Below, piece by piece: positions 9,009 to 24,912 of a stretch of 35,056 bases of DNA (its first letter is position 1; the number at the start of each line of letters is the position of its first letter). The notes beneath the pieces were generated by a model. The model had not been told where the DNA came from and did no database searches. It saw only the letters and a program-made list of their open reading frames with translations. Location: the IMG/VR virus record IMGVR_UViG_2778261316_000004. One strand, given 5' to 3'. A program made the position numbers and the translations under genes. Source of the DNA: a virus. Lineage: Duplodnaviria; Heunggongvirae; Uroviricota; Caudoviricetes.

Positions 9009-9090
9009 CGCGCGCTTGCTCTTGAAATGAGAAAGTTAATTGGTTAACTTTTTAAGCAGGGTCAACGCACTGTTGAGCAAAGGAGTGAGT

Positions 9091-9738
9091 ATGATTAGTA
9101 CAGGACATATTGTCGCTGTTGGCGCGGTTGATGCAGGCGAAGTAAAATTACTGGGTACCGGTTTTGTCATCTCTAATGACAAGATAATTACATCTCGGCA
9201 TGTAATTCGTGGTTTTGCTTTTAATATAATAATTTCTCCTTCGGAGATTAATGATTTTAATCTTTATCAAGATACTACAATCAACAGAATTCAGTATTAT
9301 TCTGTTGAGGTAATTGATGAGGATCCAATCAGAGATCTTTGTGTTTTGAAATTTAAGGCAGGATCGTTTTCTGGGCCCAATCTTATCCTCTCAAGCTTAG
9401 ATAAAATATCTATTGGTGAGGAAGTTGGTGTTTTGGGTTACCCTCATTGTAATGAGGGTAGAAAAGTACTTACATTCCAAACAGCAAGAGTCGGTGCTAA
9501 GGTTTTACTTTCGAGTAATAATGTAAAGTCTAAACATGCAGTTATAAATTTGCAATCAAGACCAGGTCAATCAGGTTCAGTTCTTTTTAATTTAAAAAAT
9601 AATGAGGTTGTCGGGGTGTTAGTTGGTGCTTATACAAATAATGCAGCGGGCTCTGTATTTATTGGAGGAATTAATCCTGCAGCTTTGCATCAAACTACTT
9701 ATGCGATTTCAGCTGAATATATTAAGGATATGTTATGA
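9091..9738 (+). CDS. Trypsin-fold (chymotrypsin-like, PA clan) serine protease, 215 aa
   Basis: ORF track 9040..9738; ATG at 9091 after AGGAG. Predicted triad in His-Asp-Ser order: H37 (TSRHV), D82 (RDLCVLKF), S161 (GQSGS). AT-rich relative to flanks. Confidence 0.8.
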   Translation: MISTGHIVAVGAVDAGEVKLLGTGFVISNDKIITSRHVIRGFAFNIIISPSEINDFNLYQDTTINRIQYYSVEVIDEDPIRDLCVLKFKAGSFSGPNLILSSLDKISIGEEVGVLGYPHCNEGRKVLTFQTARVGAKVLLSSNNVKSKHAVINLQSRPGQSGSVLFNLKNNEVVGVLVGAYTNNAAGSVFIGGINPAALHQTTYAISAEYIKDML

Positions 9739-10181
9739 TCTCTATACCAAATGAAGATGCTGAAGCTTGGCTATCTACCTTAAAAAAATATCAATCATCA
9801 ACTATTAAATCCTTTCTCGAGCAAGGTACGGAAGAGCAAGCTCTTGAATCATGGTTAACAGCTTCAGGCCCAAGTTTAACATCTCCATTTGGAGGGGATG
9901 CTTCCAGCATGCCGGGTAAAAAGGCATTTGTTGATCAGTTTAAGCAAGAGTTTAGAGCTTTTGTTTGTGGAAGCGATAAATATGTCAAAGAGAGGAATGG
10001 ATTGGGTGAGCTTGGCGGGGATATTAAAACCTATCTTGTCAGTGTTATTTCAAGTTCAATTGCTACCTCTTTAGGTACTACTACAGTATTTATTGCTCCC
10101 GCTGTTGTAATCATGCTTATTACGATCTCAAAAATGGGTCTTAATGCGTGGTGTTCATTAGAAACCGTAAAAGACTCTTAA
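9735..10181 (+). CDS. Small partner protein (148 aa) with C-terminal hydrophobic, likely membrane-spanning, segment
   Basis: ATG at 9735 overlaps the protease stop (ATGA); hydrophobic stretch YLVSVISSSIATSLGTTTVFIAPAVVIMLITI. Confidence 0.7.
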   Translation: MISIPNEDAEAWLSTLKKYQSSTIKSFLEQGTEEQALESWLTASGPSLTSPFGGDASSMPGKKAFVDQFKQEFRAFVCGSDKYVKERNGLGELGGDIKTYLVSVISSSIATSLGTTTVFIAPAVVIMLITISKMGLNAWCSLETVKDS

Positions 10182-10186
10182 AAAAA

Positions 10187-10212
10187 CCGCCCATAAGGGC
10201 GGTATATTTTTT
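10187..10212. terminator. Bidirectional intrinsic terminator (CCGCCC-ATAA-GGGCGG, A run before, T run after) between the cargo operon and Q
   Basis: Read directly at 10187..10202 followed by TATATTTTTT; A6 on the other side. Confidence 0.6.
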
Positions 10213-11236
10213 ATAAATTATAAAGTTCAAATTGAATAACCTCCTCTCCTAACCATTTGTTTACTTCCTTCATTCTTTCCTGTAGTGGGATTAGCTCGTT
10301 ACGCACAAATACCTTGCTGGCTTTTTCTATGTCACCGAATCCTCCTGTGTTCTGAGGAATGATGCCCATTAATTGTGGCGGAACACGATGAACTGCCAGC
10401 ATGTCATCACGAGATACGTTTTTTATATTCAGGAACTCATCCTTTGCCGCTACTTCTGACAGAGGGATGATCTGGATGCCATCCTTTTTGCCGTTAGGTG
10501 AGTACATAAACAGGTTGCGGAAGTTGCCCGGGCCCTTGGCGCTTTTCATGGCATGGCGGATGTTGTTCACGTCTTCCTGGTTCTGTGCGGCGTCGGTCAT
10601 GTACATGATGAACCCTGCATGGCTGCCGTTGATGTAATACTTGCGGCGGAACAGTGTGGCGGACTCGTTCAGTAGGGCGGAAGGGATGGCTGACAAGTAC
10701 TCCGGCAGGCCGTAAATCTCCTGGCTTAAGTCCGGCTCCATCAGGTGAAAAATGCTGCCTTTGGTGAACTCGTAGGGCTGAGTGCTCATACCGTATTGCA
10801 CAAACCAGTAGGTATCAAGATCCAGGCCACGGCGGGTATATTTCGCCAGCGATGGCTCCAGCGACAGAGTGCCCCCGAGGCGGTTAGTGCGCTTTTCCAG
10901 ATAGGCATTACCGAATACCAGATAGTCCTGCACAAAGCGGCTGAATGCCTGCTGGCTCAATAGCGGATGCGGAATAAACGTGCTTGTCAGGATGTTGCGC
11001 TTAACGGCAATCGGTGAGCTGTGATGTACGGCTGCACGGTGGGTACGCGCCAGCCCGTCAAAACTCACCGGCGGTTCAAACCAACGCTCCATCTGTACGC
11101 ATTCCACATAGTCCAGCAGTTCACGGCGGTCCAGAACAGGAACGGGATCACCAAAGCTGAATGCTTCGGCTGAAGTTTGGCTTTTATGCTTGAGCTGATT
11201 CGTCGCCGCAGCGCGGTTTTTCTTACTCTTTCCCAT
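10211..11236 (-). CDS. Q: Portal (capsid portal) protein, P2 gpQ type
   Basis: ORF track 10211..11239 (TTG start); ATG at 11234..11236 overlapping the P stop; 341 aa. Confidence 0.9.
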   Translation of the reverse strand: MGKSKKNRAAATNQLKHKSQTSAEAFSFGDPVPVLDRRELLDYVECVQMERWFEPPVSFDGLARTHRAAVHHSSPIAVKRNILTSTFIPHPLLSQQAFSRFVQDYLVFGNAYLEKRTNRLGGTLSLEPSLAKYTRRGLDLDTYWFVQYGMSTQPYEFTKGSIFHLMEPDLSQEIYGLPEYLSAIPSALLNESATLFRRKYYINGSHAGFIMYMTDAAQNQEDVNNIRHAMKSAKGPGNFRNLFMYSPNGKKDGIQIIPLSEVAAKDEFLNIKNVSRDDMLAVHRVPPQLMGIIPQNTGGFGDIEKASKVFVRNELIPLQERMKEVNKWLGEEVIQFELYNL

Positions 11237-13002
11237 CAAAAAATCTCCACAATATTGCTGGTATTGGCGGACTCGCCCTGCAGCGGTTCGTTAAACAGTG
11301 CGTGCATTGTTGCCCAGGCCAGATCGGCGTGGCTGGCTTCTTCGCTGCGGCTGGCTTCATAGGTCGGGCGGTTGCCACTGGCGGTGGTGGCGCGACGGAT
11401 TGCCATAAAGGACTGCGCTATGTCGGTGTGTCCGGCGTCAAACTCCAGACGGCGGTGGCTGATAATGTCGTAGGCCTTGAGTACCAGGGCGTTTTTAACG
11501 TTGGGGTTGTAGACAAACTCCCGGACGGCAGGAAAAAACGCTTTCACGTTCTCGTAAACCCCGTGACCAACGCCGGTTGAGTCGATACCGATATAGGTCA
11601 CGTTGTACTGTTCGGTCAGTTTTTTGATGGCGTCAGCCTGGGCGCGGAAGTCCATCCCGCGCCACTGGTGACGCTCAAGAATGCGGAACTTACCACCCGG
11701 CACGGCTGGCGGTGCCACCACCACGCATCCGGCGCTGTCGCCGTTTTGCGTGCCTTTTGCCGGGTCATAACCGATCCACACTTCGCGCCAGCCAAACGGG
11801 CGCAGCGCCAGTGCATGAAAGTCGGTCCAGACTTCCCAACTGTCCACCATGCACGCCTGCAGCTCGCTGAGCGGAAACACGGACGCGAGATCGTCCACAA
11901 ACTCGCACATCAGCAGGTTCTGGTATTCGTCCGGGCTGTACTCCATGCGTAGCTGGTCGAGGTCGAACAGGTTACAGCCGCCGCGCACCGCATCTTCCAC
12001 GGTGACTATCTGGCGGTATTGCCCGTCTGCGCACAGCAGGCCGGGGGCCAGATTGCTGTGGGACAGGTCGATGTCCACCTTATCGGCTTTGTTGCGCCCA
12101 CGGTTGAACAGCGCACCGGACCAGAACGGATAAGCACTGTGTGTCAGACTGGATGGCGTGGAAAAATAGGTCTGTCGCCATTTTTTGTGAATAGCCATAC
12201 CGGAAGCCACTTTGCGCAGCTCCTGGAATTTCGGTATCCAGAAATATTCATCCAGATACAGGTTGCCGTGGTAACTCTGGGCCGTGCGGGCATTGGTGCC
12301 GAGGAAGTAAAGCGTGGCCCCGTTGGGAAGCACCATCGGATCGCCTTTCAGTTCCACATCCACTTCTTTGGCGAAGTCGATGATGTACTGCTTAAAGACG
12401 TGGGCCTGTGCCTTGCTGGCGGAAAGGAAAATCTGGTTACGTCCGGTAAGCAGGGCGTCAATCAGGGCTTCACGGGCAAAGTAAAAGGTCGCGCCGATCT
12501 GGCGTGACTTCAGCAGGTTGCGGATGCGGTTGGTTTTTCCGGCTTCCCACCAGTGGCGCTGGTAGTTGAACATGGAGGAATGGAAGATTTCTTCCAGCTT
12601 CTCAATCTGTTCATCGGTGAAGACATTCTTTTCCGGCTGACGGCGCGGGCCTTTGTTGCGGTTGGCGACGTTAGGGTTTAAGTCGGCTTCGTTGCCGCCA
12701 TTGTTAAACTTGCCGATCCGCGCGTGGCGCTCAGACTGGCGCGCCAGCAGGTCAATCTCTTTGAAATCTTTCCCTTCTTTGTGCTCCTTCATGATGAGCT
12801 GGCAGTAGCGTGCGGCGGTGGTGAGCTGCATCTGATCCAGCGGCCCATATTCACTCCACTTGTCGCGTTTTTTCCAGCTGTGAACGGTTGCAACTTTCTC
12901 GCCCAGCATTTCAGCAATGCGGGCTACGCGGTATCCCTGAAAGTACAGCAGCATGGCCTGCCGACGGGGATCGAGATCTGCGGGTGTCAGTGTGGTGTTC
13001 AT
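11236..13002 (-). CDS. P: Terminase large (ATPase) subunit, P2 gpP type
   Basis: 588 aa ORF; conserved Q-P leftward pair opposite the O-N-M-L operon. Confidence 0.9.
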   Translation of the reverse strand: MNTTLTPADLDPRRQAMLLYFQGYRVARIAEMLGEKVATVHSWKKRDKWSEYGPLDQMQLTTAARYCQLIMKEHKEGKDFKEIDLLARQSERHARIGKFNNGGNEADLNPNVANRNKGPRRQPEKNVFTDEQIEKLEEIFHSSMFNYQRHWWEAGKTNRIRNLLKSRQIGATFYFAREALIDALLTGRNQIFLSASKAQAHVFKQYIIDFAKEVDVELKGDPMVLPNGATLYFLGTNARTAQSYHGNLYLDEYFWIPKFQELRKVASGMAIHKKWRQTYFSTPSSLTHSAYPFWSGALFNRGRNKADKVDIDLSHSNLAPGLLCADGQYRQIVTVEDAVRGGCNLFDLDQLRMEYSPDEYQNLLMCEFVDDLASVFPLSELQACMVDSWEVWTDFHALALRPFGWREVWIGYDPAKGTQNGDSAGCVVVAPPAVPGGKFRILERHQWRGMDFRAQADAIKKLTEQYNVTYIGIDSTGVGHGVYENVKAFFPAVREFVYNPNVKNALVLKAYDIISHRRLEFDAGHTDIAQSFMAIRRATTASGNRPTYEASRSEEASHADLAWATMHALFNEPLQGESANTSNIVEIF

Positions 13003-20850: not shown

Positions 20851-21448
20851 TCTGCTGCCACCGGGTTCAACGCCACTGGAGCGCCGACTGGCGCAAACCT
20901 GCAGCGGGATTTCTGATCTGCAGGTGTCACTGCGTGACTTGTGGAATCCGGCAACCTGTCCGGTCAGTTTCCTGCCTTATCTCGCCTGGGCGTTCTCTGT
21001 GGATCGCTGGGACGAGGGCTGGACAGAAAGCGTCAAACGCCAGGTAGTGAAGGATGCTTTTTATATTCATCAGCACAAAGGAACCACCAGTGCCGTACGG
21101 CGGGTGGTGGAGCCGTTCGGCTTCCTGATCCGCATTATTGAGTGGTGGCAGACCGGAGAAACACCGGGCACGTTTCGCCTGGACATTGGTGTGCAGGACC
21201 AGGGCATCACTGAAGATACCTATCTGGAACTTGAGCGACTGATAAGCGATGCCAAACCATGTAGCCGTCACATGATCGGCATGTCCATCAATCTGCAGAC
21301 CAGCGGCCCGCATTGGGTGGGAGCCGCCAGTTATCTTGGCGAAGAAATCACGATCTATCCGTATATCAACGAAACAATTATTTCCGGCGGCACCGCGCAT
21401 GAAGGCGGGGCGGTCCATGTTATTGACACAATGAGAGTGAATCCATGA
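20843..21448 (+). CDS. I: Baseplate/tail protein I
   Basis: 201 aa ORF; position between J and H. Confidence 0.8.
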   Translation: MNSLLPPGSTPLERRLAQTCSGISDLQVSLRDLWNPATCPVSFLPYLAWAFSVDRWDEGWTESVKRQVVKDAFYIHQHKGTTSAVRRVVEPFGFLIRIIEWWQTGETPGTFRLDIGVQDQGITEDTYLELERLISDAKPCSRHMIGMSINLQTSGPHWVGAASYLGEEITIYPYINETIISGGTAHEGGAVHVIDTMRVNP

Positions 21449-22788
21449 GCACAAAATTTTATACCCTGCTGACGGATATTGGCGCGGCGAAACTTGCCAG
21501 CGCCGCCGCGCTCGGTGTGCCGCTAAAAATTACCCATATGGCGGTGGGCGATGGCGGCGGAACATTGCCGACGCCGGACGCAAAGCAGACGGCACTGGTA
21601 AATGAGAAACGCCGGGCTGCGCTGAATATGCTCTATATCGACCCGCAGAACAGCAGCCATATTATTGCTGAACAGGTGATCCCTGAAAATGAGGGTGGTT
21701 GGTGGATACGTGAAGTGGGTCTGTTTGATGAGTCCGGGGCATTGATTGCCGTAGGCAACTGCCCGGAAAGCTATAAGCCGCAACTGGCTGAAGGCAGCGG
21801 GCGCACCCAGACCGTGCGCATGGTGTTGATTACCAGCAGCACGGACAATATCACCCTGAAAATCGACCCTGCCGTCGTGCTGGCAACCCGCAAGTATGTG
21901 GATGACAAGGTACTGGAGCTGAAGGTGTTCGTGGATGATAAGATGGCAAAACATCTTGCCGCACCGGACCCGCATTCACAGTATGCACCCAAAGAAAGCC
22001 CGACATTGACCGGAACACCCAAAGCGCCAACGCCAGCGGAGGGGAATAACACCACGCAGATTGCGACCACCGCGTTTGTTCAGGCGGCACTGATGGCCCT
22101 TATTAATGGTGCGCCAGCCACACTGGATACGCTGAAAGAAATTGCCGCTGCCATTAATAATGACCCGAAATTCAGTACCACCATTAACAATGCGCTGGCA
22201 CTGAAAGCGCCGCTGTCAAGTCCGGCACTCACCGGAACGCCAACAGCCCCCACTGCCGCACAGTCGGTTAACAATACACAGATTGCCACTACGGCTTTTG
22301 TGAAATCGGCGATTGCGGCAATGGTGGGTTCTGCACCTGCGGCACTGGATACACTGAACGAACTGGCGGCGGCGCTGGGGAATGACCCGAACTTTGCCAC
22401 GACAATGCTTAATGCACTGGCAGGTAAACAACCGCTGGACAATACGCTGACTAATTTGAGTGGAAAGGATGTAGCTGGTCTTCTCGCATACCTTGGTTTA
22501 GGAGCAGGCTCAGCGTTACCCGTTGGTATACCTGTTCCGTGGCCTTCAGCCACACCGCCAACAGGCTGGTTGAAATGCAATGGTGCGCCTTTTTCTGCCG
22601 AAGAGTATCCGGAACTGGCAAAAGTTTATCCGACAAATGAATTGCCAGATTTACGTGGTGAGTTTATTCGTGGGTGGGATGATGGACGAGGTGTGGACAA
22701 TGAGCGAGCATTATTAAGCAGGCAAGAGGCTACAAACTTTTCTCAGTATGCCGGAAATCTAGGCAATGGTGCGGGGGCACACAATTAA
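21445..22788 (+). CDS. H: Tail fibre protein H (constant N-terminal part plus currently expressed variable C-terminus)
   Basis: 447 aa ORF; internal tandem repeats; hix-like crossover site inside the gene at about 22485..22510. Confidence 0.85.
   Translation: MSTKFYTLLTDIGAAKLASAAALGVPLKITHMAVGDGGGTLPTPDAKQTALVNEKRRAALNMLYIDPQNSSHIIAEQVIPENEGGWWIREVGLFDESGALIAVGNCPESYKPQLAEGSGRTQTVRMVLITSSTDNITLKIDPAVVLATRKYVDDKVLELKVFVDDKMAKHLAAPDPHSQYAPKESPTLTGTPKAPTPAEGNNTTQIATTAFVQAALMALINGAPATLDTLKEIAAAINNDPKFSTTINNALALKAPLSSPALTGTPTAPTAAQSVNNTQIATTAFVKSAIAAMVGSAPAALDTLNELAAALGNDPNFATTMLNALAGKQPLDNTLTNLSGKDVAGLLAYLGLGAGSALPVGIPVPWPSATPPTGWLKCNGAPFSAEEYPELAKVYPTNELPDLRGEFIRGWDDGRGVDNERALLSRQEATNFSQYAGNLGNGAGAHN
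22003..22434 (+). repeat. Two tandem copies of a roughly 70 aa repeat within the H tail-fibre shaft
   Basis: Repeats TLTGTPKAPT...NNTTQIATTAFV...DTLKEIAAAINNDPKF and ALTGTPTAPT...NNTQIATTAFV...DTLNELAAALGNDPNF seen in the translation. Confidence 0.6.
22485..22510. promoter_or_regulatory. Left inversion crossover site (hix/gix-like) inside H
   Basis: Reverse complement reads CTCCTAAACCAAGGTATG, containing the AAACCAAGGT core as I recall it from hix; imperfect inverted repeat of the right site. Confidence 0.5.
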
Positions 22789-22926
22789 TTTTCATGATGG
22801 CATCGTCGGAAATCAGTCAGGATTTTCACGATTTAATCTCACCAGTGACGCTGTGGGTAATGGTGTGAATTTTGTTGCTGTCAGACCGCGAAATATTGCA
22901 TTTAACTATATCGTGAGGGCTGCATA

Positions 22927-23529
22927 ATGGATAACGCCGTATTAAATAGCGAGCTTATTGCCACGAAGGCGGGGAATATTACTGTTTATAACTATGATGG
23001 TGAGACGCGGGAATATATTTCTGCATCAACTGAATATCTTGCAGTGGGTGTCGGTATTCCAGCATATTCCTGTTTAGACGCTCCTGGTACATCTAAGGCT
23101 GGTTATACAATTTGCCGTTCTGTGGATTTAAAATCATGGGAATATGTGCCAGACCATCGCGGTGAAATCGTCTATAGCACCGAAACGGGAGATGCCAAAG
23201 AAATCACAGCACTAGGCGACTATCCCGAAAATACAACCACTATCGCTCCGTTAACGCCACATGATAAATGGGATGGTGAGAAATGGGTGACGGATACCGA
23301 GGCACAGCATAGCGCCGCACTAGACGCGGCAGAAGCACAGCGCCAGTCACTGATTAATGCAGCAATGGCTTCCATTAGTCTGATTCAGCTGAAATTACAG
23401 GCCGGACGGAAGTTGACGCAGGCAGAAACAACCCGACTTAACGCCGTGCTGGATTACATTGACGCGGTGACGGCAACAGATACCAGCACCGCGCCGGATG
23501 TCATCTGGCCTGAACTGCCGGAGGAGTAG
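22927..23529 (+). CDS. G: Tail fibre assembly chaperone (gpG type)
   Basis: 200 aa ORF after H; C-terminus resembles that of the minus-strand paralogue (LDYIDA...TSTAPD). Confidence 0.8.
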   Translation: MDNAVLNSELIATKAGNITVYNYDGETREYISASTEYLAVGVGIPAYSCLDAPGTSKAGYTICRSVDLKSWEYVPDHRGEIVYSTETGDAKEITALGDYPENTTTIAPLTPHDKWDGEKWVTDTEAQHSAALDAAEAQRQSLINAAMASISLIQLKLQAGRKLTQAETTRLNAVLDYIDAVTATDTSTAPDVIWPELPEE

Positions 23530-23944
23530 GCCATTCAATATCTGGTGCACTGGAAGTATCGACCAGCTCCAGTGCGTCCAGATAATCCAGCCACAAATTA
23601 TATTGCACCAGTTCCTCACCTTTCAGACGACCAATTGATGCTTTACCTGGCCATTGTTTACTGTTGATGTATTCGTTGGCCTGGTTAATCAATTGCTGCT
23701 TTTTAGTTTCGGCTGATGCAATTTGTTCTTCACGTGTTGGTGGAGGAATATCTGCCCATGCAGGCAGTCCATCCTCTCCGACACATCTGTATTTTCCTTC
23801 TGGTGGTGTATCATAGAAATATTCCCTGAAAATTACTTCGTCTATATCAACACCTTTTTCTTCAGGCCATTCACCTTTTTCAACATAAAGAGACTGAAGT
23901 TCGTAAGGATATGCCAGGTTGTTTACGTACAGATATTTCATCAT
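23501..23944 (-). CDS. Alternative tail fibre assembly chaperone (G'), expressed after inversion
   Basis: 147 aa minus-strand ORF, convergent and overlapping G; shared C-terminal motif LDYLDALELVDTSSAPD. Confidence 0.75.
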   Translation of the reverse strand: MMKYLYVNNLAYPYELQSLYVEKGEWPEEKGVDIDEVIFREYFYDTPPEGKYRCVGEDGLPAWADIPPPTREEQIASAETKKQQLINQANEYINSKQWPGKASIGRLKGEELVQYNLWLDYLDALELVDTSSAPDIEWPTPPAVQAR

Positions 23945-24318
23945 TACCAGCCCTTAGCGAAAAACACACCACCTTCAAGACCATAATTGCAGTGAGCTAT
24001 GAAGCCGGTAGTGCTCCAGTTGGTCGCCCCCCACATATTCCCGCCCCCGAAACCACCATCGAACACAATTATAATGTCCGGTGTCTGTGTAAATGGAATT
24101 GGGAATGAAACATTGGCGGATACAGGCTCGTTTTCACCAGGAAAACGAATTCCTCCCCACTGTTCAATTGAACCATCTGGCATTTTTCGCCAGCCTGAAC
24201 CTGATGCATATGATGACATATCAGGTATCTGATTTTCCCCTGTTCCCACATTCCGTTTTGCCGCTTCTCCCAAACCAACGTTTAAGAAAATACAGAGGTA
24301 ACAGCTAACTGGCATCAT
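23944..24318 (-). CDS. Alternative variable C-terminal segment of tail fibre H (Hv'); has no independent function until fused to H by inversion
   Basis: Minus-strand ORF runs through the right crossover site; codons LGLGE at the site are in the same frame relative to the TTGGTTT core as LGLGA in H, so inversion gives an in-frame fusion. Confidence 0.6.
   Translation of the reverse strand: MMPVSCYLCIFLNVGLGEAAKRNVGTGENQIPDMSSYASGSGWRKMPDGSIEQWGGIRFPGENEPVSANVSFPIPFTQTPDIIIVFDGGFGGGNMWGATNWSTTGFIAHCNYGLEGGVFFAKGW
24265..24290. promoter_or_regulatory. Right inversion crossover site (hix/gix-like) beside the invertase gene
   Basis: CTCCCAAACCAACGTTTAAG read at 24267..24286; inverted relative to the site in H. 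Confidence 0.5.
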
Positions 24319-24345
24319 CTCCGGTTTTTATTCAGGGGGATGATC

Positions 24346-24912
24346 ATGCTTATTGGCTATGTACGCGTGTCAACAAATGACCAGAACACCGATTTGCAAC
24401 GTAATGCACTGAATTGCGCGGGATGTGAGCGGATTTTTGAGGACAAAATCAGTGGCACTAAGTCCGACAGACCGGGGCTGAAAAAACTACTCAGGACACT
24501 ATCGGCAGGAGACACGCTGGTTGTCTGGAAGCTGGACAGGTTGGGGCGCAGTATGCGGCATCTTGTTACGCTGATAGAAGAGTTGCGCCAGCGTGGTGTG
24601 AATTTCAGAAGCCTGACTGACAGTATTGATACCAGCACCCCAATGGGCCGTTTCTTTTTTCATGTCATGGGTGCCCTGGCTGAAATGGAACGCGAACTGA
24701 TAGTTGAACGTACCAGGGCAGGGCTGGCTGCAGCTCGTGCCAAAGGTAGAGTAGGTGGACGCCGTCCTAAGTTGACCACCGAACAGTGGGCACAGATTGG
24801 ACGTTTACTCGAGGCCGGAGAATCAAGACAGCGTATTGCACTGATTTTTGACGTGGGCGTTTCTACCATTTATAGAAAATTTCCGGCAAATAAGATCAAT
24901 GAATCCCCCTGA
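24346..24912 (+). CDS. Serine site-specific DNA invertase (Gin/Hin/Cin/Pin family)
   Basis: ORF track 24340..24912; ATG at 24346; N-terminus MLIGYVRVSTNDQNTDLQRNAL with catalytic Ser; C-terminal HTH; close to Mu Gin from memory. Confidence 0.85.
   Translation: MLIGYVRVSTNDQNTDLQRNALNCAGCERIFEDKISGTKSDRPGLKKLLRTLSAGDTLVVWKLDRLGRSMRHLVTLIEELRQRGVNFRSLTDSIDTSTPMGRFFFHVMGALAEMERELIVERTRAGLAAARAKGRVGGRRPKLTTEQWAQIGRLLEAGESRQRIALIFDVGVSTIYRKFPANKINESP

What the first reader, a model, noticed from the sequence alone, without database searches (positions are those of the whole stretch)
9040..10212. AT-rich two-gene cargo operon (trypsin-fold serine protease plus small C-terminally hydrophobic partner) in the A-to-Q hotspot: candidate undescribed anti-phage defence / abortive-infection module
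Seen in sequence: a 215 aa protein (9091..9738) with a chymotrypsin-fold triad in His-Asp-Ser order (H37 in TSRHV, D82 in RDLCVLKF, S161 in GQSGS) is translationally coupled (ATGA overlap at 9735) to a 148 aa protein ending in a long hydrophobic segment; the pair has its own RBS and an intrinsic terminator (10187..10212), and is far more AT-rich than the flanking phage genes. Established knowledge: in P2-like phages the interval between replication gene A and portal gene Q is the variable cargo locus (P2 carries tin and old there), and such loci are enriched in defence systems. Inference: a protease paired with a membrane-targeted partner fits an abortive-infection or exclusion module, not a morphogenetic function. 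I cannot assign it to a named system from memory.
Basis: partly seen in the sequence, partly recalled or inferred. Interest (0 to 1): 0.85.

Follow-up and report, generated by a model that had tools for sequence, protein, structure and literature searches.

The report
Catalogued protease plus membrane-partner defence candidate
An E. coli prophage carries a real two-gene cassette, a small serine protease and a helical membrane-type partner, that looks like an anti-phage suicide switch; it is already listed, untested, in the PADLOC defence database as candidate system PDC-M35.

Summary
A 215-aa chymotrypsin-fold protease (9091..9738; H37/D82/S161 invariant in 50 homologues) is translationally coupled to a 148-aa all-helical protein (9735..10181) with a hydrophobic hairpin. 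The pair has its own RBS and terminator and 37% GC. It sits between cos and portal gene Q of a complete 186/P2-like prophage next to E. coli ybjL.

The "undescribed" part is wrong. Both proteins match PADLOC models PDC-M35A and PDC-M35B over their full length (E 4e-91, 6e-57). PDC-M35 is a "phage defence candidate" from Payne et al. 2024 and is explicitly untested. A 74%-identical E. coli pair is listed in the P2-hotspot table of Rousset et al. 2022 but was not cloned.

The defence reading is supported by context only. The pair is strictly linked in 35 of 35 loci across Proteobacteria, Bacteroidota and Clostridia. It occurs in P2-like and Mu-like prophages, prophage remnants, plasmids and islands. 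It is found inside a type I R-M operon beside CBASS, and beside Septu-like, PD-T4-5-like and PDC-S14 genes.

The partner has no Pfam, PDB or BFVD relative. My best guess is a sensor-less protease-gated membrane effector, cleaved at a conserved P-F-G-G linker. This mechanism is inferred, not shown. Interest is moderate.

The parts
8990..9009 (+). cos-like packaging site (GGCGTGGCGGGGATACGAGC). It marks the left border of the cargo slot and is not part of the operon itself.
   Evidence: It lies inside the only block (window ~8865..9015) that is conserved in other P2-like phages. It aligns with the P4/P2 cos sequences GGGCGAGGCGGGGAAAGCAC quoted in Rousset Table S2. It is identical in L001, L012 and L014, after which the cargo diverges. 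Coordinates.
9022..9050 (+). Candidate sigma-70 promoter of the cassette: TTGAAA, 17 nt, TAACTT (inferred).
   Evidence: The same position and spacing is kept in the 74%-diverged cargo alleles: L001 has TTGATA-17-TATTGT and L014 has TTGATA-17-TATCTT. The -10 hexamer is too weak to pass the consensus scan. No experimental support.
9080..9085 (+). Ribosome-binding site AAGGAG, 5 nt upstream of ATG 9091.
   Evidence: Read from the sequence.
9091..9738 (+). PDC-M35A: standalone cytoplasmic S1 (HtrA-like, chymotrypsin-fold) serine protease of 215 aa with triad H37/D82/S161. It has no signal peptide, PDZ domain or sensor domain.
   Evidence: PADLOC PDC-M35A E 3.8e-91 over residues 4-215 of a 216-position model. 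Pfam Trypsin_2. Triad invariant in 50 homologues. AF2 plus Foldseek.
9735..10181 (+). PDC-M35B: 148-aa all-alpha partner. It has an N-terminal three-helix subdomain (residues 9-43) and a flexible linker (44-64) carrying the conserved G-P-x-x-T-x-P-F-G-[GAST] motif. Two amphipathic helices (60-90) follow, then a hydrophobic helical hairpin (97-134) flanked by K98 and K133, then a conserved N-A-W-C.
   Evidence: PADLOC PDC-M35B E 6.3e-57. AF2 pLDDT 85.8, pTM 0.81, with the low-confidence loop at 44-59. Column statistics on 80 homologues. Hydropathy. No Pfam, PDB or BFVD relative.
10186..10212 (.). Bidirectional intrinsic terminator between the partner gene (+) and portal gene Q (-).
   Evidence: A 7-bp stem (6 G-C pairs), a 4-nt loop and T-runs on both strands.

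Best explanation
The cassette is a member of the catalogued but untested candidate defence family PDC-M35. It is carried as a lysogen-expressed moron in the cos-to-Q slot of a 186/P2-like prophage.

Proposed mechanism (inferred). The system would be a minimal, sensor-less version of the protease-effector modules now known to dominate bacterial abortive-infection immunity. The 215-aa HtrA-like cytoplasmic protease is kept inactive or kept away from its substrate in healthy cells. When a competing phage infects, the protease cuts its co-translated partner in the flexible linker just after the conserved P-F-G-[G/A/S/T] motif (residue ~54). That cut would remove the acidic N-terminal three-helix subdomain. 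The C-terminal part would then insert or oligomerise through its small-residue-rich hydrophobic hairpin (residues 97-134), permeabilise the inner membrane, and stop the cell before the phage completes its cycle.

Shown: identity of the family, fold, intact triad, strict gene linkage, mobility, and defence-type neighbourhoods.
Inferred: that it defends at all, that the partner is the substrate and effector, the cleavage site, and the trigger.
For: Identity:
- Full-length matches to PADLOC PDC-M35A and PDC-M35B. The family is defined in Payne et al. 2024.

Obligate pair:
- The partner lies directly downstream on the same strand in 35 of 35 sources. These include 14 IMG/VR contigs with protease identity down to 38%, and 3 loci found starting from the partner.
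- Pairwise identities of the two proteins correlate (r = 0.88 over 22 distinct pairs).

Defence context:
- P2 A-Q hotspot in E. coli, Salmonella and Marinomonas.
- Opposite-strand moron in an Aeromonas Mu-like prophage.
- Inside a C. perfringens type I R-M operon beside a CBASS cyclase plus 2TM effector.
- Beside Septu-like PtuA1/PDC-M01 on C. perfringens plasmids.
- Beside PD-T4-5-like and PDC-S14 genes in Salegentibacter.
- Retained in degraded prophages.

Mechanistic analogy:
- The protease's best hits among defence models are the trypsin domains of DRT (RT-Protease_XI), LmuA, HamA and Avs1b. In these four systems a trypsin-like protease activates a linked pro-effector by site-specific cleavage after small residues (Tuck et al., PMC12799240; Huang et al.).
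- Small non-enzymatic partners of defence proteases (Pepco, EACC1) are latent pore-formers released by one cut (Evans et al., PMC12642450).

Partner anatomy fits this model:
- It has a conserved motif (F52 in 73/80, G53 in 77/80, a small residue at position 54 in 76/80). The motif sits at the edge of an indel-rich loop with pLDDT 56-62.
- The hairpin is flanked by conserved basic residues K98 and K133.
- One homologue has a ~70-aa insertion in this linker, which shows the two halves are separable.
Against: - No experiment exists for this family. The 145 PDCs are explicitly untested.
- Base rates for such candidates are only about 35-50%. Four of eight randomly chosen PADLOC candidates protected. 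'More than a third' of cloned hotspot systems protected.
- There is no sensor domain in either protein, so the trigger is unexplained.
- All characterised protease-effector modules have the protease fused to a sensor.
- The similarity to defence-type trypsin domains (60 bits) is no stronger than to the generic Pfam Trypsin_2 model (62.6 bits). It does not prove a specific relationship.
- AF2 predicts the partner as one compact helical bundle (pTM 0.81). This cannot tell a soluble latent form from a constitutive membrane hairpin.
- No protease-partner complex model could be computed.
- The invariant polar residues E72, Y83, C78 and C140 are not explained by a simple pore model.
- The partner evolves faster than the protease (38% against 49% mean identity). 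This would also fit the partner being the specificity or sensing component.
- The pair is absent from all 50,697 deposited phage genomes.
Confidence: 0.45

Rival explanations
1. The protease is the effector or toxin. On infection it degrades host or phage proteins, as Lit cleaves EF-Tu or the IetS subtilase acts as toxin. The small partner is its membrane anchor, inhibitor (antitoxin) or phage sensor, not its substrate.
For: The protease is the more conserved component (49% against 38% mean identity), as expected for an effector paired with a faster-evolving sensor or regulator. There is precedent for a serine protease as the toxic component of a defence/TA pair (IetAS, cited in PMC13069673). 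The partner's invariant E72, Y83, C78 and C140 suggest a specific binding or regulatory surface.
Against: The closest defence-associated trypsin domains act by activating a linked pro-effector, not by bulk proteolysis. A conserved motif at the edge of a disordered, indel-rich linker is more typical of a cleavage site than of an inhibitor interface. The hydrophobic hairpin is the most obvious killing device in the pair.
Confidence: 0.2
2. Non-abortive superinfection exclusion at the membrane. The partner sits constitutively in the inner membrane as an N-in/C-in hairpin and recruits the protease there. The protease then destroys incoming phage ejection, pilot or tape-measure proteins and blocks DNA entry without killing the cell.
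For: The pair is prophage-borne in P2-like and Mu-like phages. The hairpin with conserved flanking lysines is compatible with constitutive membrane insertion. Many prophage morons are Sie proteins (established knowledge).
Against: The pair is equally at home in non-phage defence islands, plasmids and inside R-M operons. This is typical of general intracellular defence systems. Both proteins are cytoplasmic-facing with no periplasmic domain. There is no direct evidence.
Confidence: 0.1
3. Addiction or stabilisation (toxin-antitoxin) module with no role in phage defence. The partner is a membrane toxin that the protease continuously degrades, so losing the element kills the cell.
For: It is a two-gene, translationally coupled, mobile cassette on prophages and plasmids. 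It is retained in prophage remnants. IetAS was first described as a plasmid-stability TA system.
Against: For post-segregational killing the antitoxin must be the less stable partner, and nothing suggests that for a compact protease. In one lineage the protease gene is frameshifted while the partner ORF stays intact (L032/L033). That would be lethal if the partner were an unchecked toxin. TA and defence roles are not mutually exclusive.
Confidence: 0.1
4. Cargo unrelated to conflict with phages. One example would be processing of the partner into a secreted or membrane-active peptide for bacterial competition or virulence. The F-G-G motif loosely recalls double-glycine leaders.
For: P2 hotspots also carry non-defence cargo such as partition systems and cytolethal distending toxin. 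On C. perfringens plasmids the pair lies 1.5 kb from the cpb2 toxin gene.
Against: No exporter, immunity gene or signal peptide accompanies the pair in any of 35 loci. Double-glycine leaders are cut by C39 cysteine peptidase domains of ABC exporters, not by S1 proteases (established knowledge). Neighbourhoods are enriched in defence genes.
Confidence: 0.06
5. A morphogenetic or maturation protease of the phage, such as a prohead protease with a scaffold or membrane helper.
For: It is a serine protease next to the portal and terminase genes.
Against: It is present in only 13 of 1,267 complete E. coli genomes that carry the flanking P2-type cos block. It is absent from all 50,697 deposited phage genomes. 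It is found in non-phage contexts. The window has the normal P2 head genes (O-type scaffold, N, M, L) downstream of P. Its composition is foreign.
Confidence: 0.01

Closest known systems
PDC-M35 (PADLOC-DB v2 'phage defence candidate', Payne et al. 2024, bioRxiv 10.1101/2024.01.29.577857)
   Same: Both genes match the A and B models over their full length (E 3.8e-91 and 6.3e-57), in the same order and on the same strand. A relative in C. perfringens is embedded in a type I R-M operon, the kind of context from which PDCs were derived.
   Different: Nothing differs: this is a member. The family itself has no experimental validation, no mechanism and no name beyond the catalogue number.
Protease-effector modules with small latent pore-formers: EACC1 and Pepco/Trypco (Evans et al. 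2025, PMC12642450)
   Same: Both have a conserved pairing of a protease with a small non-enzymatic protein. The partner has two parts joined by a linker, as in EACC1, where an N-terminal autoinhibitory piece is removed and the C-terminal piece attacks membranes.
   Different: Here the protease stands alone at 215 aa. It is not fused to an Avs, STAND, FGE or other sensor. The partner is all-alpha with a hydrophobic hairpin, whereas Pepco forms a beta-barrel and EACC1 oligomerises through beta-strands. No Pfam family (Trypco or EACC1 included, if the copy searched holds them) is hit by any of 80 family members. EACC1 pairs with cysteine proteases.
Trypsin-MBL nuclease pairs of Hachiman (HamMAB), AVAST type 1, Lamassu and DRT (Tuck et al. 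Science 2025/26, PMC12799240; Huang et al. bioRxiv 10.1101/2025.09.03.673762)
   Same: The protease domain is of the same Trypsin_2 type. The PADLOC models for RT-Protease_XI, LmuA, HamA1 and Avs1b are the next-best hits after PDC-M35A. Those proteases cut flexible loops after small residues (K-S-S), which parallels the small residue conserved at partner position 54.
   Different: There is no MBL nuclease and no helicase, STAND or RT sensor. The putative effector is a membrane protein, not a DNase. The gene order is protease first, whereas the MBL gene is typically upstream of its protease.
Bacterial gasdermin systems
   Same: The logic is the same: a linked protease removes an inhibitory part of a pore-former.
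HtrA/DegS/DegQ/MarP family (S1C peptidases)
   Same: These are the best structural matches for the protease (Foldseek E ~1e-9, TM 0.60-0.66). The catalytic triad order is the same.
   Different: The protease has no signal peptide, transmembrane anchor or PDZ domain. All NCBIfam family scores are far below cut-off (MarP 36.8 against 250; DegP 20.8 against 416). It is cytoplasmic and carried on mobile elements.
Other cargo of the P2 A-Q hotspot (old, tin, PARIS, DprA-PRTase, and the 'Peptidase + TM' construct pFR104 of Rousset et al. 2022)
   Same: It occupies the same cos-adjacent hotspot. The E. coli homologue pair appears in Rousset's Table S5A.
   Different: It has no sequence relation to old or tin. 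pFR104 is an ImmA/IrrE-type HEXXH metallopeptidase plus a 1-TM protein, which is a different system, and it was not among the three that protected. This pair lies on the Q side of cos, whereas the REL606 and TA255 systems cloned by Rousset lie on the A side.

Membership tests
PDC-M35 (PADLOC candidate system) | Gene A matches the PDC-M35A HMM. | tested here: met
   E 3.8e-91, 302.7 bits, residues 4-215 on model positions 5-216 of 216.
PDC-M35 (PADLOC candidate system) | Gene B matches a PDC-M35B HMM and lies adjacent on the same strand. | tested here: met
   E 6.3e-57, residues 3-144 on model positions 6-144 of 148. There is a 4-nt ATGA overlap. Adjacency holds in 35 of 35 loci.
PDC-M35 (PADLOC candidate system) | Relatives occur embedded in BREX, DISARM or type I R-M operons (the criterion by which PDCs were nominated). 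| tested here: met
   In C. perfringens L003/L004 the order is HsdM, HsdS, integrase fragment, the pair, CBASS cyclase plus 2TM effector, HsdR.
Anti-phage defence system (functional class) | Confers measurable protection against phage when expressed. | not testable with these tools
   No report was found in the searchable literature. The PDCs are stated to be untested.
Protease-effector defence modules (MBL, alpha/beta-hydrolase, Pepco, EACC1, gasdermin and others) | Conserved genetic linkage of a catalytically intact protease with a putative effector. | tested here: met
   Triad invariant in 50 homologues. Linkage in 35 of 35 loci. Co-variation of divergence r = 0.88.
Protease-effector defence modules (MBL, alpha/beta-hydrolase, Pepco, EACC1, gasdermin and others) | Protease fused to, or accompanied by, a sensor (Avs/STAND, HamAB, LmuA, RT, CARF and others). 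| tested here: not met
   The 215 aa are all protease domain (Pfam stretch 22-176, AF2 single domain). Homologues are a constant ~215 aa. No conserved third gene appears in any locus.
Protease-effector defence modules (MBL, alpha/beta-hydrolase, Pepco, EACC1, gasdermin and others) | Effector belongs to one of the described effector families. | tested here: not met
Protease-effector defence modules (MBL, alpha/beta-hydrolase, Pepco, EACC1, gasdermin and others) | Site-specific cleavage of the effector by its protease releases toxicity. | not testable with these tools
   There is only indirect support: the conserved P-F-G-[GAST] motif at the edge of a low-pLDDT, indel-rich linker.
P2-like phage A-Q (cos-adjacent) hotspot cargo | Variable gene set between replication gene A and portal gene Q, next to cos. 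| tested here: met
   Gene A is at 5083..7497, cos at 8990..9009 and Q at 10211..11239. The flanks are conserved and the cargo is variable among relatives. The hotspot is defined in PMC9122126.
HtrA/DegP (S1C) quality-control proteases | Periplasmic or exported protease with C-terminal PDZ domain(s). | tested here: not met
   No PDZ domain or signal sequence. TIGR02037 scores 20.8 bits against a cut-off of 416. Only the protease fold is shared.
Rousset 2022 'Peptidase + TM' construct (pFR104) | Same proteins as the cloned and tested construct. | tested here: not met
   The pFR104 proteins are an HEXXH (ImmA/IrrE-like) peptidase and an unrelated 1-TM protein.

The most novel reading that the evidence does not exclude
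PDC-M35 could be the smallest self-contained protease-gated immune system. A 215-aa HtrA-like protease would itself sense infection, for example by allosteric activation by a phage protein or peptide, as DegS is activated by OMP peptides. It would then release a new, all-alpha class of membrane-killing effector with no relative in Pfam, PDB or BFVD. That effector family has at least 784 clusters at 50% identity, spread over several phyla and over phages, plasmids and islands.
Probability: 0.3. Interest if true: 0.65.

Novelty: already known. Interest (0 to 1): 0.35.

Why it matters
As a discovery it adds little. The family is already in PADLOC as PDC-M35, and a homologue is in the published P2-hotspot catalogue.

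It matters as a well-characterised lead. This analysis shows the two genes are an obligate pair across at least three phyla and every type of mobile element. It shows the partner belongs to a large family with no annotated relative. It also shows the pair lacks the sensor domain that all characterised protease-effector modules have.

If the pair does protect, it would show how a bare protease can sense infection. It would also add an alpha-helical effector class to the protease-gated death effectors described in 2025.

The small size (1.1 kb), the apparent own promoter and the E. coli origin make it an easy experiment.

Tried and rejected
1. Equating the pair with Rousset's cloned 'Peptidase + TM' system (pFR104). 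Rejected: pFR104 is an HEXXH metallopeptidase plus a different 1-TM protein.
2. Partner as Pepco/Trypco or EACC1. Rejected: no Pfam hit in 80 relatives, and the fold is all-alpha.
4. Informative domain fusions among partner relatives. None were found. The longer entries are mis-called N-termini or a linker insertion.
5. Solo partners, or partners paired with another protease type. In three partner-first look-ups the same protease was upstream each time. It was frameshifted once and cut by the contig end once.
6. A known RNA element in 7400..10400. Nothing came near Rfam thresholds.
7. A strong consensus promoter. None passed the scan. A weaker, positionally conserved candidate was found by comparing alleles.
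8. A published test of PDC-M35, of WP_001350593 or WP_000560513, or of any trypsin-plus-small-membrane-protein system. None was found.
9. Morphogenetic protease. Rejected on distribution.
10. Double-glycine bacteriocin leader. Considered because of the F-G-G motif. Rejected because no exporter or immunity gene is present and the protease class is wrong.
11. The genome contigs and metagenome-contig scans were not spent. Linkage and breadth were already clear from 35 loci.
Full report
**1. What is in the sequence**

The window is a complete 186/P2-like prophage. On the left are the integrase (1..1209, minus strand), a 186-type CI repressor (1449..2105, minus strand), cII/CP76, a Dam-type methylase and replication gene A (5083..7497). 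On the right are portal Q (10211..11239, minus strand), terminase P (11236..13002, minus strand) and the head, lysis and tail genes.

The right flank is 100% identical to the E. coli ybjL-ybjM-grxA region, so the host is E. coli.

Between A and Q lie, in order:
- a small phrog_698 ORF;
- a DinI-like gene;
- a 111-aa acidic ORF on the minus strand (8275..8610);
- a 150-bp block conserved in other P2-like phages (about 8865..9015), which contains the cos site GGCGTGGCGGGGATACGAGC at 8990..9009;
- the two genes of the finding.

**2. Check of the observation**

All stated features are present.

- The protease gene, 9091..9738, encodes 215 aa. It matches Pfam Trypsin_2 (E 9e-17) and Trypsin (E 2e-8).
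- In an alignment of 50 homologues, H37, D82, S161 and the R-P-G-Q-S-G stretch around S161 are invariant.
- AlphaFold2 gives a confident chymotrypsin-fold model (pLDDT 87, pTM 0.83). Its best PDB neighbours are HtrA-type enzymes: MamO, MucD, DegQ, DegS, DegP and MarP, at E ~1e-9 and TM 0.60-0.66.
- ATG 9091 is the start, preceded by AAGGAG at 9080..9085. The upstream TTG at 9040 is not. The N-terminal Met and the ~215-aa length are conserved in homologues.
- The stop overlaps the partner's start in ATGA.
- The partner gene, 9735..10181, encodes 148 aa. It is acidic (pI 5.0) and has a hydrophobic region at about residues 100-135.
- A 7-bp G+C-rich hairpin with T-runs on both strands (10186..10212) ends both this operon and the convergent Q gene.
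- GC is 0.368 for the pair, against 0.51-0.57 for A, Q and P.

**3. What it is**

Both proteins match, over their full length, the PADLOC-DB v2 models PDC-M35A (E 3.8e-91) and PDC-M35B (E 6.3e-57).

PDCs are the 145 'phage defence candidates' that Payne et al. (bioRxiv 10.1101/2024.01.29.577857) derived from genes embedded inside BREX, DISARM and type I R-M operons. They are described as untested. Their Table S8 lists the cassette FAM_02427>>FAM_02508 as 'Assign as candidate PDC-M35'.

Independently, Table S5A of Rousset et al. 2022 (PMC9122126) lists the E. coli proteins WP_001350593 (Trypsin_2) and WP_000560513 among arrangements of the P2 A-Q hotspot. These are the 74%-identical pair I found at the same position in 13 complete E. 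coli genomes.

Rousset et al. did not clone this pair. Their 'Peptidase + TM' construct pFR104 is an HEXXH metallopeptidase with an unrelated 1-TM protein, and it was not among the three P2 systems that protected.

I found no paper that tests PDC-M35 or these proteins. So the cassette is catalogued but uncharacterised.

**4. The pair as a unit**

The protease family is large and strikingly uniform. It has 365 clusters, a length of ~215 aa, and ~50% identity between Enterobacterales, Vibrio, Aeromonas, Marinomonas, Bacteroidota and Clostridium.

A profile of the partner finds 784 clusters (at 50% identity) with E<=1e-3 and 290 with E<=1e-10. Nearly all are 137-170 aa and match end to end.

In every source I could inspect, the partner lies directly downstream of the protease on the same strand, usually overlapping it. 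That is 35 of 35 sources:
- the window;
- 17 loci fetched through proteases;
- 14 IMG/VR contigs, with protease identity down to 38%;
- 3 loci fetched through distant partners.

In one lineage the protease is split by a frameshift (L032/L033). Across 22 distinct pairs the pairwise identities of the two proteins correlate (r = 0.88). The partner diverges faster, at 38% mean identity against 49%. No third gene is conserved.

**5. Where it lives**

| Context | Organism / locus |
|---|---|
| P2/186-like prophages, between A and Q | E. coli, Salmonella, Marinomonas |
| Prophage remnants that lost their structural genes but kept the pair | L010; Pantoea L029/L030, same protein on 24 contigs |
| Opposite-strand moron among the tail genes of a Mu-like prophage | Aeromonas |
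| Small integrase island at argS | L027/L028 |
| ~48-kb cpb2 plasmids, immediately after a Septu-like PtuA1/PDC-M01 ATPase + HNH pair (E 4e-160) | C. perfringens |
| Inside a chromosomal type I R-M operon, next to a CBASS cyclase (E 5e-139) and its 2TM effector | C. perfringens |
| Next to PD-T4-5-like and PDC-S14 genes | Salegentibacter |

The pair is absent from all 50,697 deposited phage genomes. In complete E. coli genomes it is rare: 13 of the 1,267 genomes that carry the conserved cos block.

The cargo segment of the window (8864..11031) is 99.2% identical to a Salmonella prophage. The rest of that phage is 88-95% identical and the chromosome flank 83%, which suggests recent exchange of the cassette.

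This is the distribution of a mobile accessory system of the defence type. It excludes a morphogenetic role.

**6. Anatomy of the partner**

AlphaFold2, run with 80 homologues, gives a confident all-alpha model (pLDDT 85.8, pTM 0.81). The helices are at 9-13, 18-30, 33-43, 60-77, 81-90, 97-113, 117-134 and 136-145. The one low-confidence stretch is 44-59.

Column statistics show the following.
- That stretch begins with a conserved motif: G45, P46, T49, P51, F52 (73/80), G53 (77/80) and a small residue (G/A/S/T, 76/80) at position 54.
- It then becomes variable and indel-rich at positions 55-64.
- One homologue has ~70 extra residues there.
- The hydrophobic hairpin is rich in small residues (S103, S106, A110, G114; A117, A121). 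It has an invariant-like G114 at the turn and P122 in the second helix.
- The hairpin is bracketed by conserved basic residues K98 and K133. This fits an N-in/C-in membrane hairpin.
- E72 and Y83 are invariant. C78 and C140 are conserved at >=96%.

**7. How it most likely works**

After PDC-M35A, the protease's best PADLOC hits are the trypsin domains of RT-Protease_XI (E 4e-17), LmuA (E 6e-11), HamA1 (E 5e-6) and Avs1b. In exactly these four system types, a trypsin-like protease was shown in 2025 to activate a linked MBL pro-nuclease by site-specific cuts after small residues in inhibitory loops (PMC12799240; 10.1101/2025.09.03.673762).

Evans et al. (PMC12642450) generalised this. Small non-enzymatic partners of defence proteases (Pepco, EACC1) are latent pore-formers released by a single cut.

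By analogy, I propose that the PDC-M35 protease cuts its partner after the P-F-G-[G/A/S/T] motif. This would remove the N-terminal three-helix subdomain and free the hairpin-bearing C-terminal part to damage the membrane, aborting infection.

Only the components and their linkage are shown. Defence itself, the substrate relationship, the cleavage site and the trigger are all inferred.

The main weakness is the absence of any sensor. All characterised modules have the protease fused to one. Here the protease would have to sense infection itself, or the partner would.

My confidence at each level:

| Claim | Confidence |
|---|---|
| Member of PDC-M35 | ~0.97 |
| Defence function of some kind | ~0.65 |
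| The specific protease-gated membrane-effector mechanism | ~0.35-0.45 |

The defence figure starts from a base rate for untested candidates of about 35-50%, raised by the contexts in section 5.

**8. Rivals**

- The protease is the toxin or effector, and the partner is its regulator, anchor or sensor. The faster evolution of the partner, its invariant polar residues and the IetAS precedent favour this.
- Non-abortive exclusion at the membrane.
- A pure addiction module. The lineage with a frameshifted protease and an intact partner argues against it.
- Non-conflict cargo.
- A morphogenetic protease, refuted by distribution.

**9. Verdict**

The claim of novelty fails, because the pair is the already catalogued candidate PDC-M35 and part of the published P2-hotspot inventory.

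What remains interesting is that nobody appears to have tested it. It would also be an unusually minimal, sensor-less protease-effector pair with a partner family of unknown fold class. Interest is moderate (0.35).

Noticed in passing
window 8090..8863 (ORF 8275..8610, minus strand): There is a second, independently variable cargo slot on the A side of cos. Here it holds a 111-aa very acidic protein (pI 4.05; 26 D+E against 7 K+R) of PHROG family phrog_17127, with no Pfam or PADLOC hit. Relatives carry a different 141-aa ORF (L001), a 203-aa ORF (L012) or nothing (L011) at this spot. Its size and charge recall DNA-mimic anti-restriction proteins, but this was not tested.
   Followed up: partly
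window 8865..9015: This is the only part of the region conserved at ~90% in other P2-like phages of Klebsiella, Salmonella, Yersinia and Erwinia. It contains a terminator-like hairpin (8922..8939) and the cos site (8990..9009). The protease cassette therefore sits on the Q side of cos, that is, at the extreme left end of packaged linear DNA.
   Followed up: partly
window 21445..24912: The tail-fibre region looks like an invertible host-range cassette. It holds tail fibre gene H (21445..22788) and a tail-fibre assembly gene on the plus strand (22927..23529). A second assembly gene and an alternative fibre C-terminus follow on the minus strand (23501..24318). A Hin/Cin-type serine invertase is at 24340..24912. 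The crossover sites were not found by a simple inverted-repeat search.
   Followed up: partly
L010 9774..11942; L029/L030 8001..9088: The pair is retained in decayed prophages. In Salmonella L010 the cassette is followed directly by ogr and chromosomal genes, with all structural genes gone. In Pantoea it is flanked only by portal and tail-S fragments, and the identical protein is on 24 contigs. This suggests the host keeps the cassette after the phage dies.
   Followed up: no
L032 4263..4998 and L033 3015..3750: In one distant lineage the protease gene upstream of an intact partner gene is split into two frames (HMM positions 17-95 and 99-215). The split is identical in a MAG and in a JGI metagenome contig. 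It could be a pseudogene, a shared assembly error or programmed frameshifting.
   Followed up: no
window 8864..11031 against L010, L011 and L012: The cassette plus the start of Q is 98-99% identical between this E. coli prophage and Salmonella prophages. The early region is 88-96% identical and the Salmonella chromosomal flank 83%. This is evidence of recent inter-genus exchange of the cos-Q segment.
   Followed up: no
window 7650..8082: The DinI-like ORF as listed (7777..8082, 101 aa) overlaps the phrog_698 ORF (7650..7838). Relatives annotate DinI as 77 aa, so the true start is probably an internal ATG near 7849.
   Followed up: no
partner protein residues 72, 78, 83, 140 (window ~9948..10154): E72 and Y83 are invariant in 80 diverse homologues, and C78 and C140 are conserved in 77-78 of 80. 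A simple pore-forming model does not explain two conserved cysteines and an invariant Glu/Tyr pair. They may mark an interaction surface, a redox switch or an unrecognised active site.
   Followed up: no
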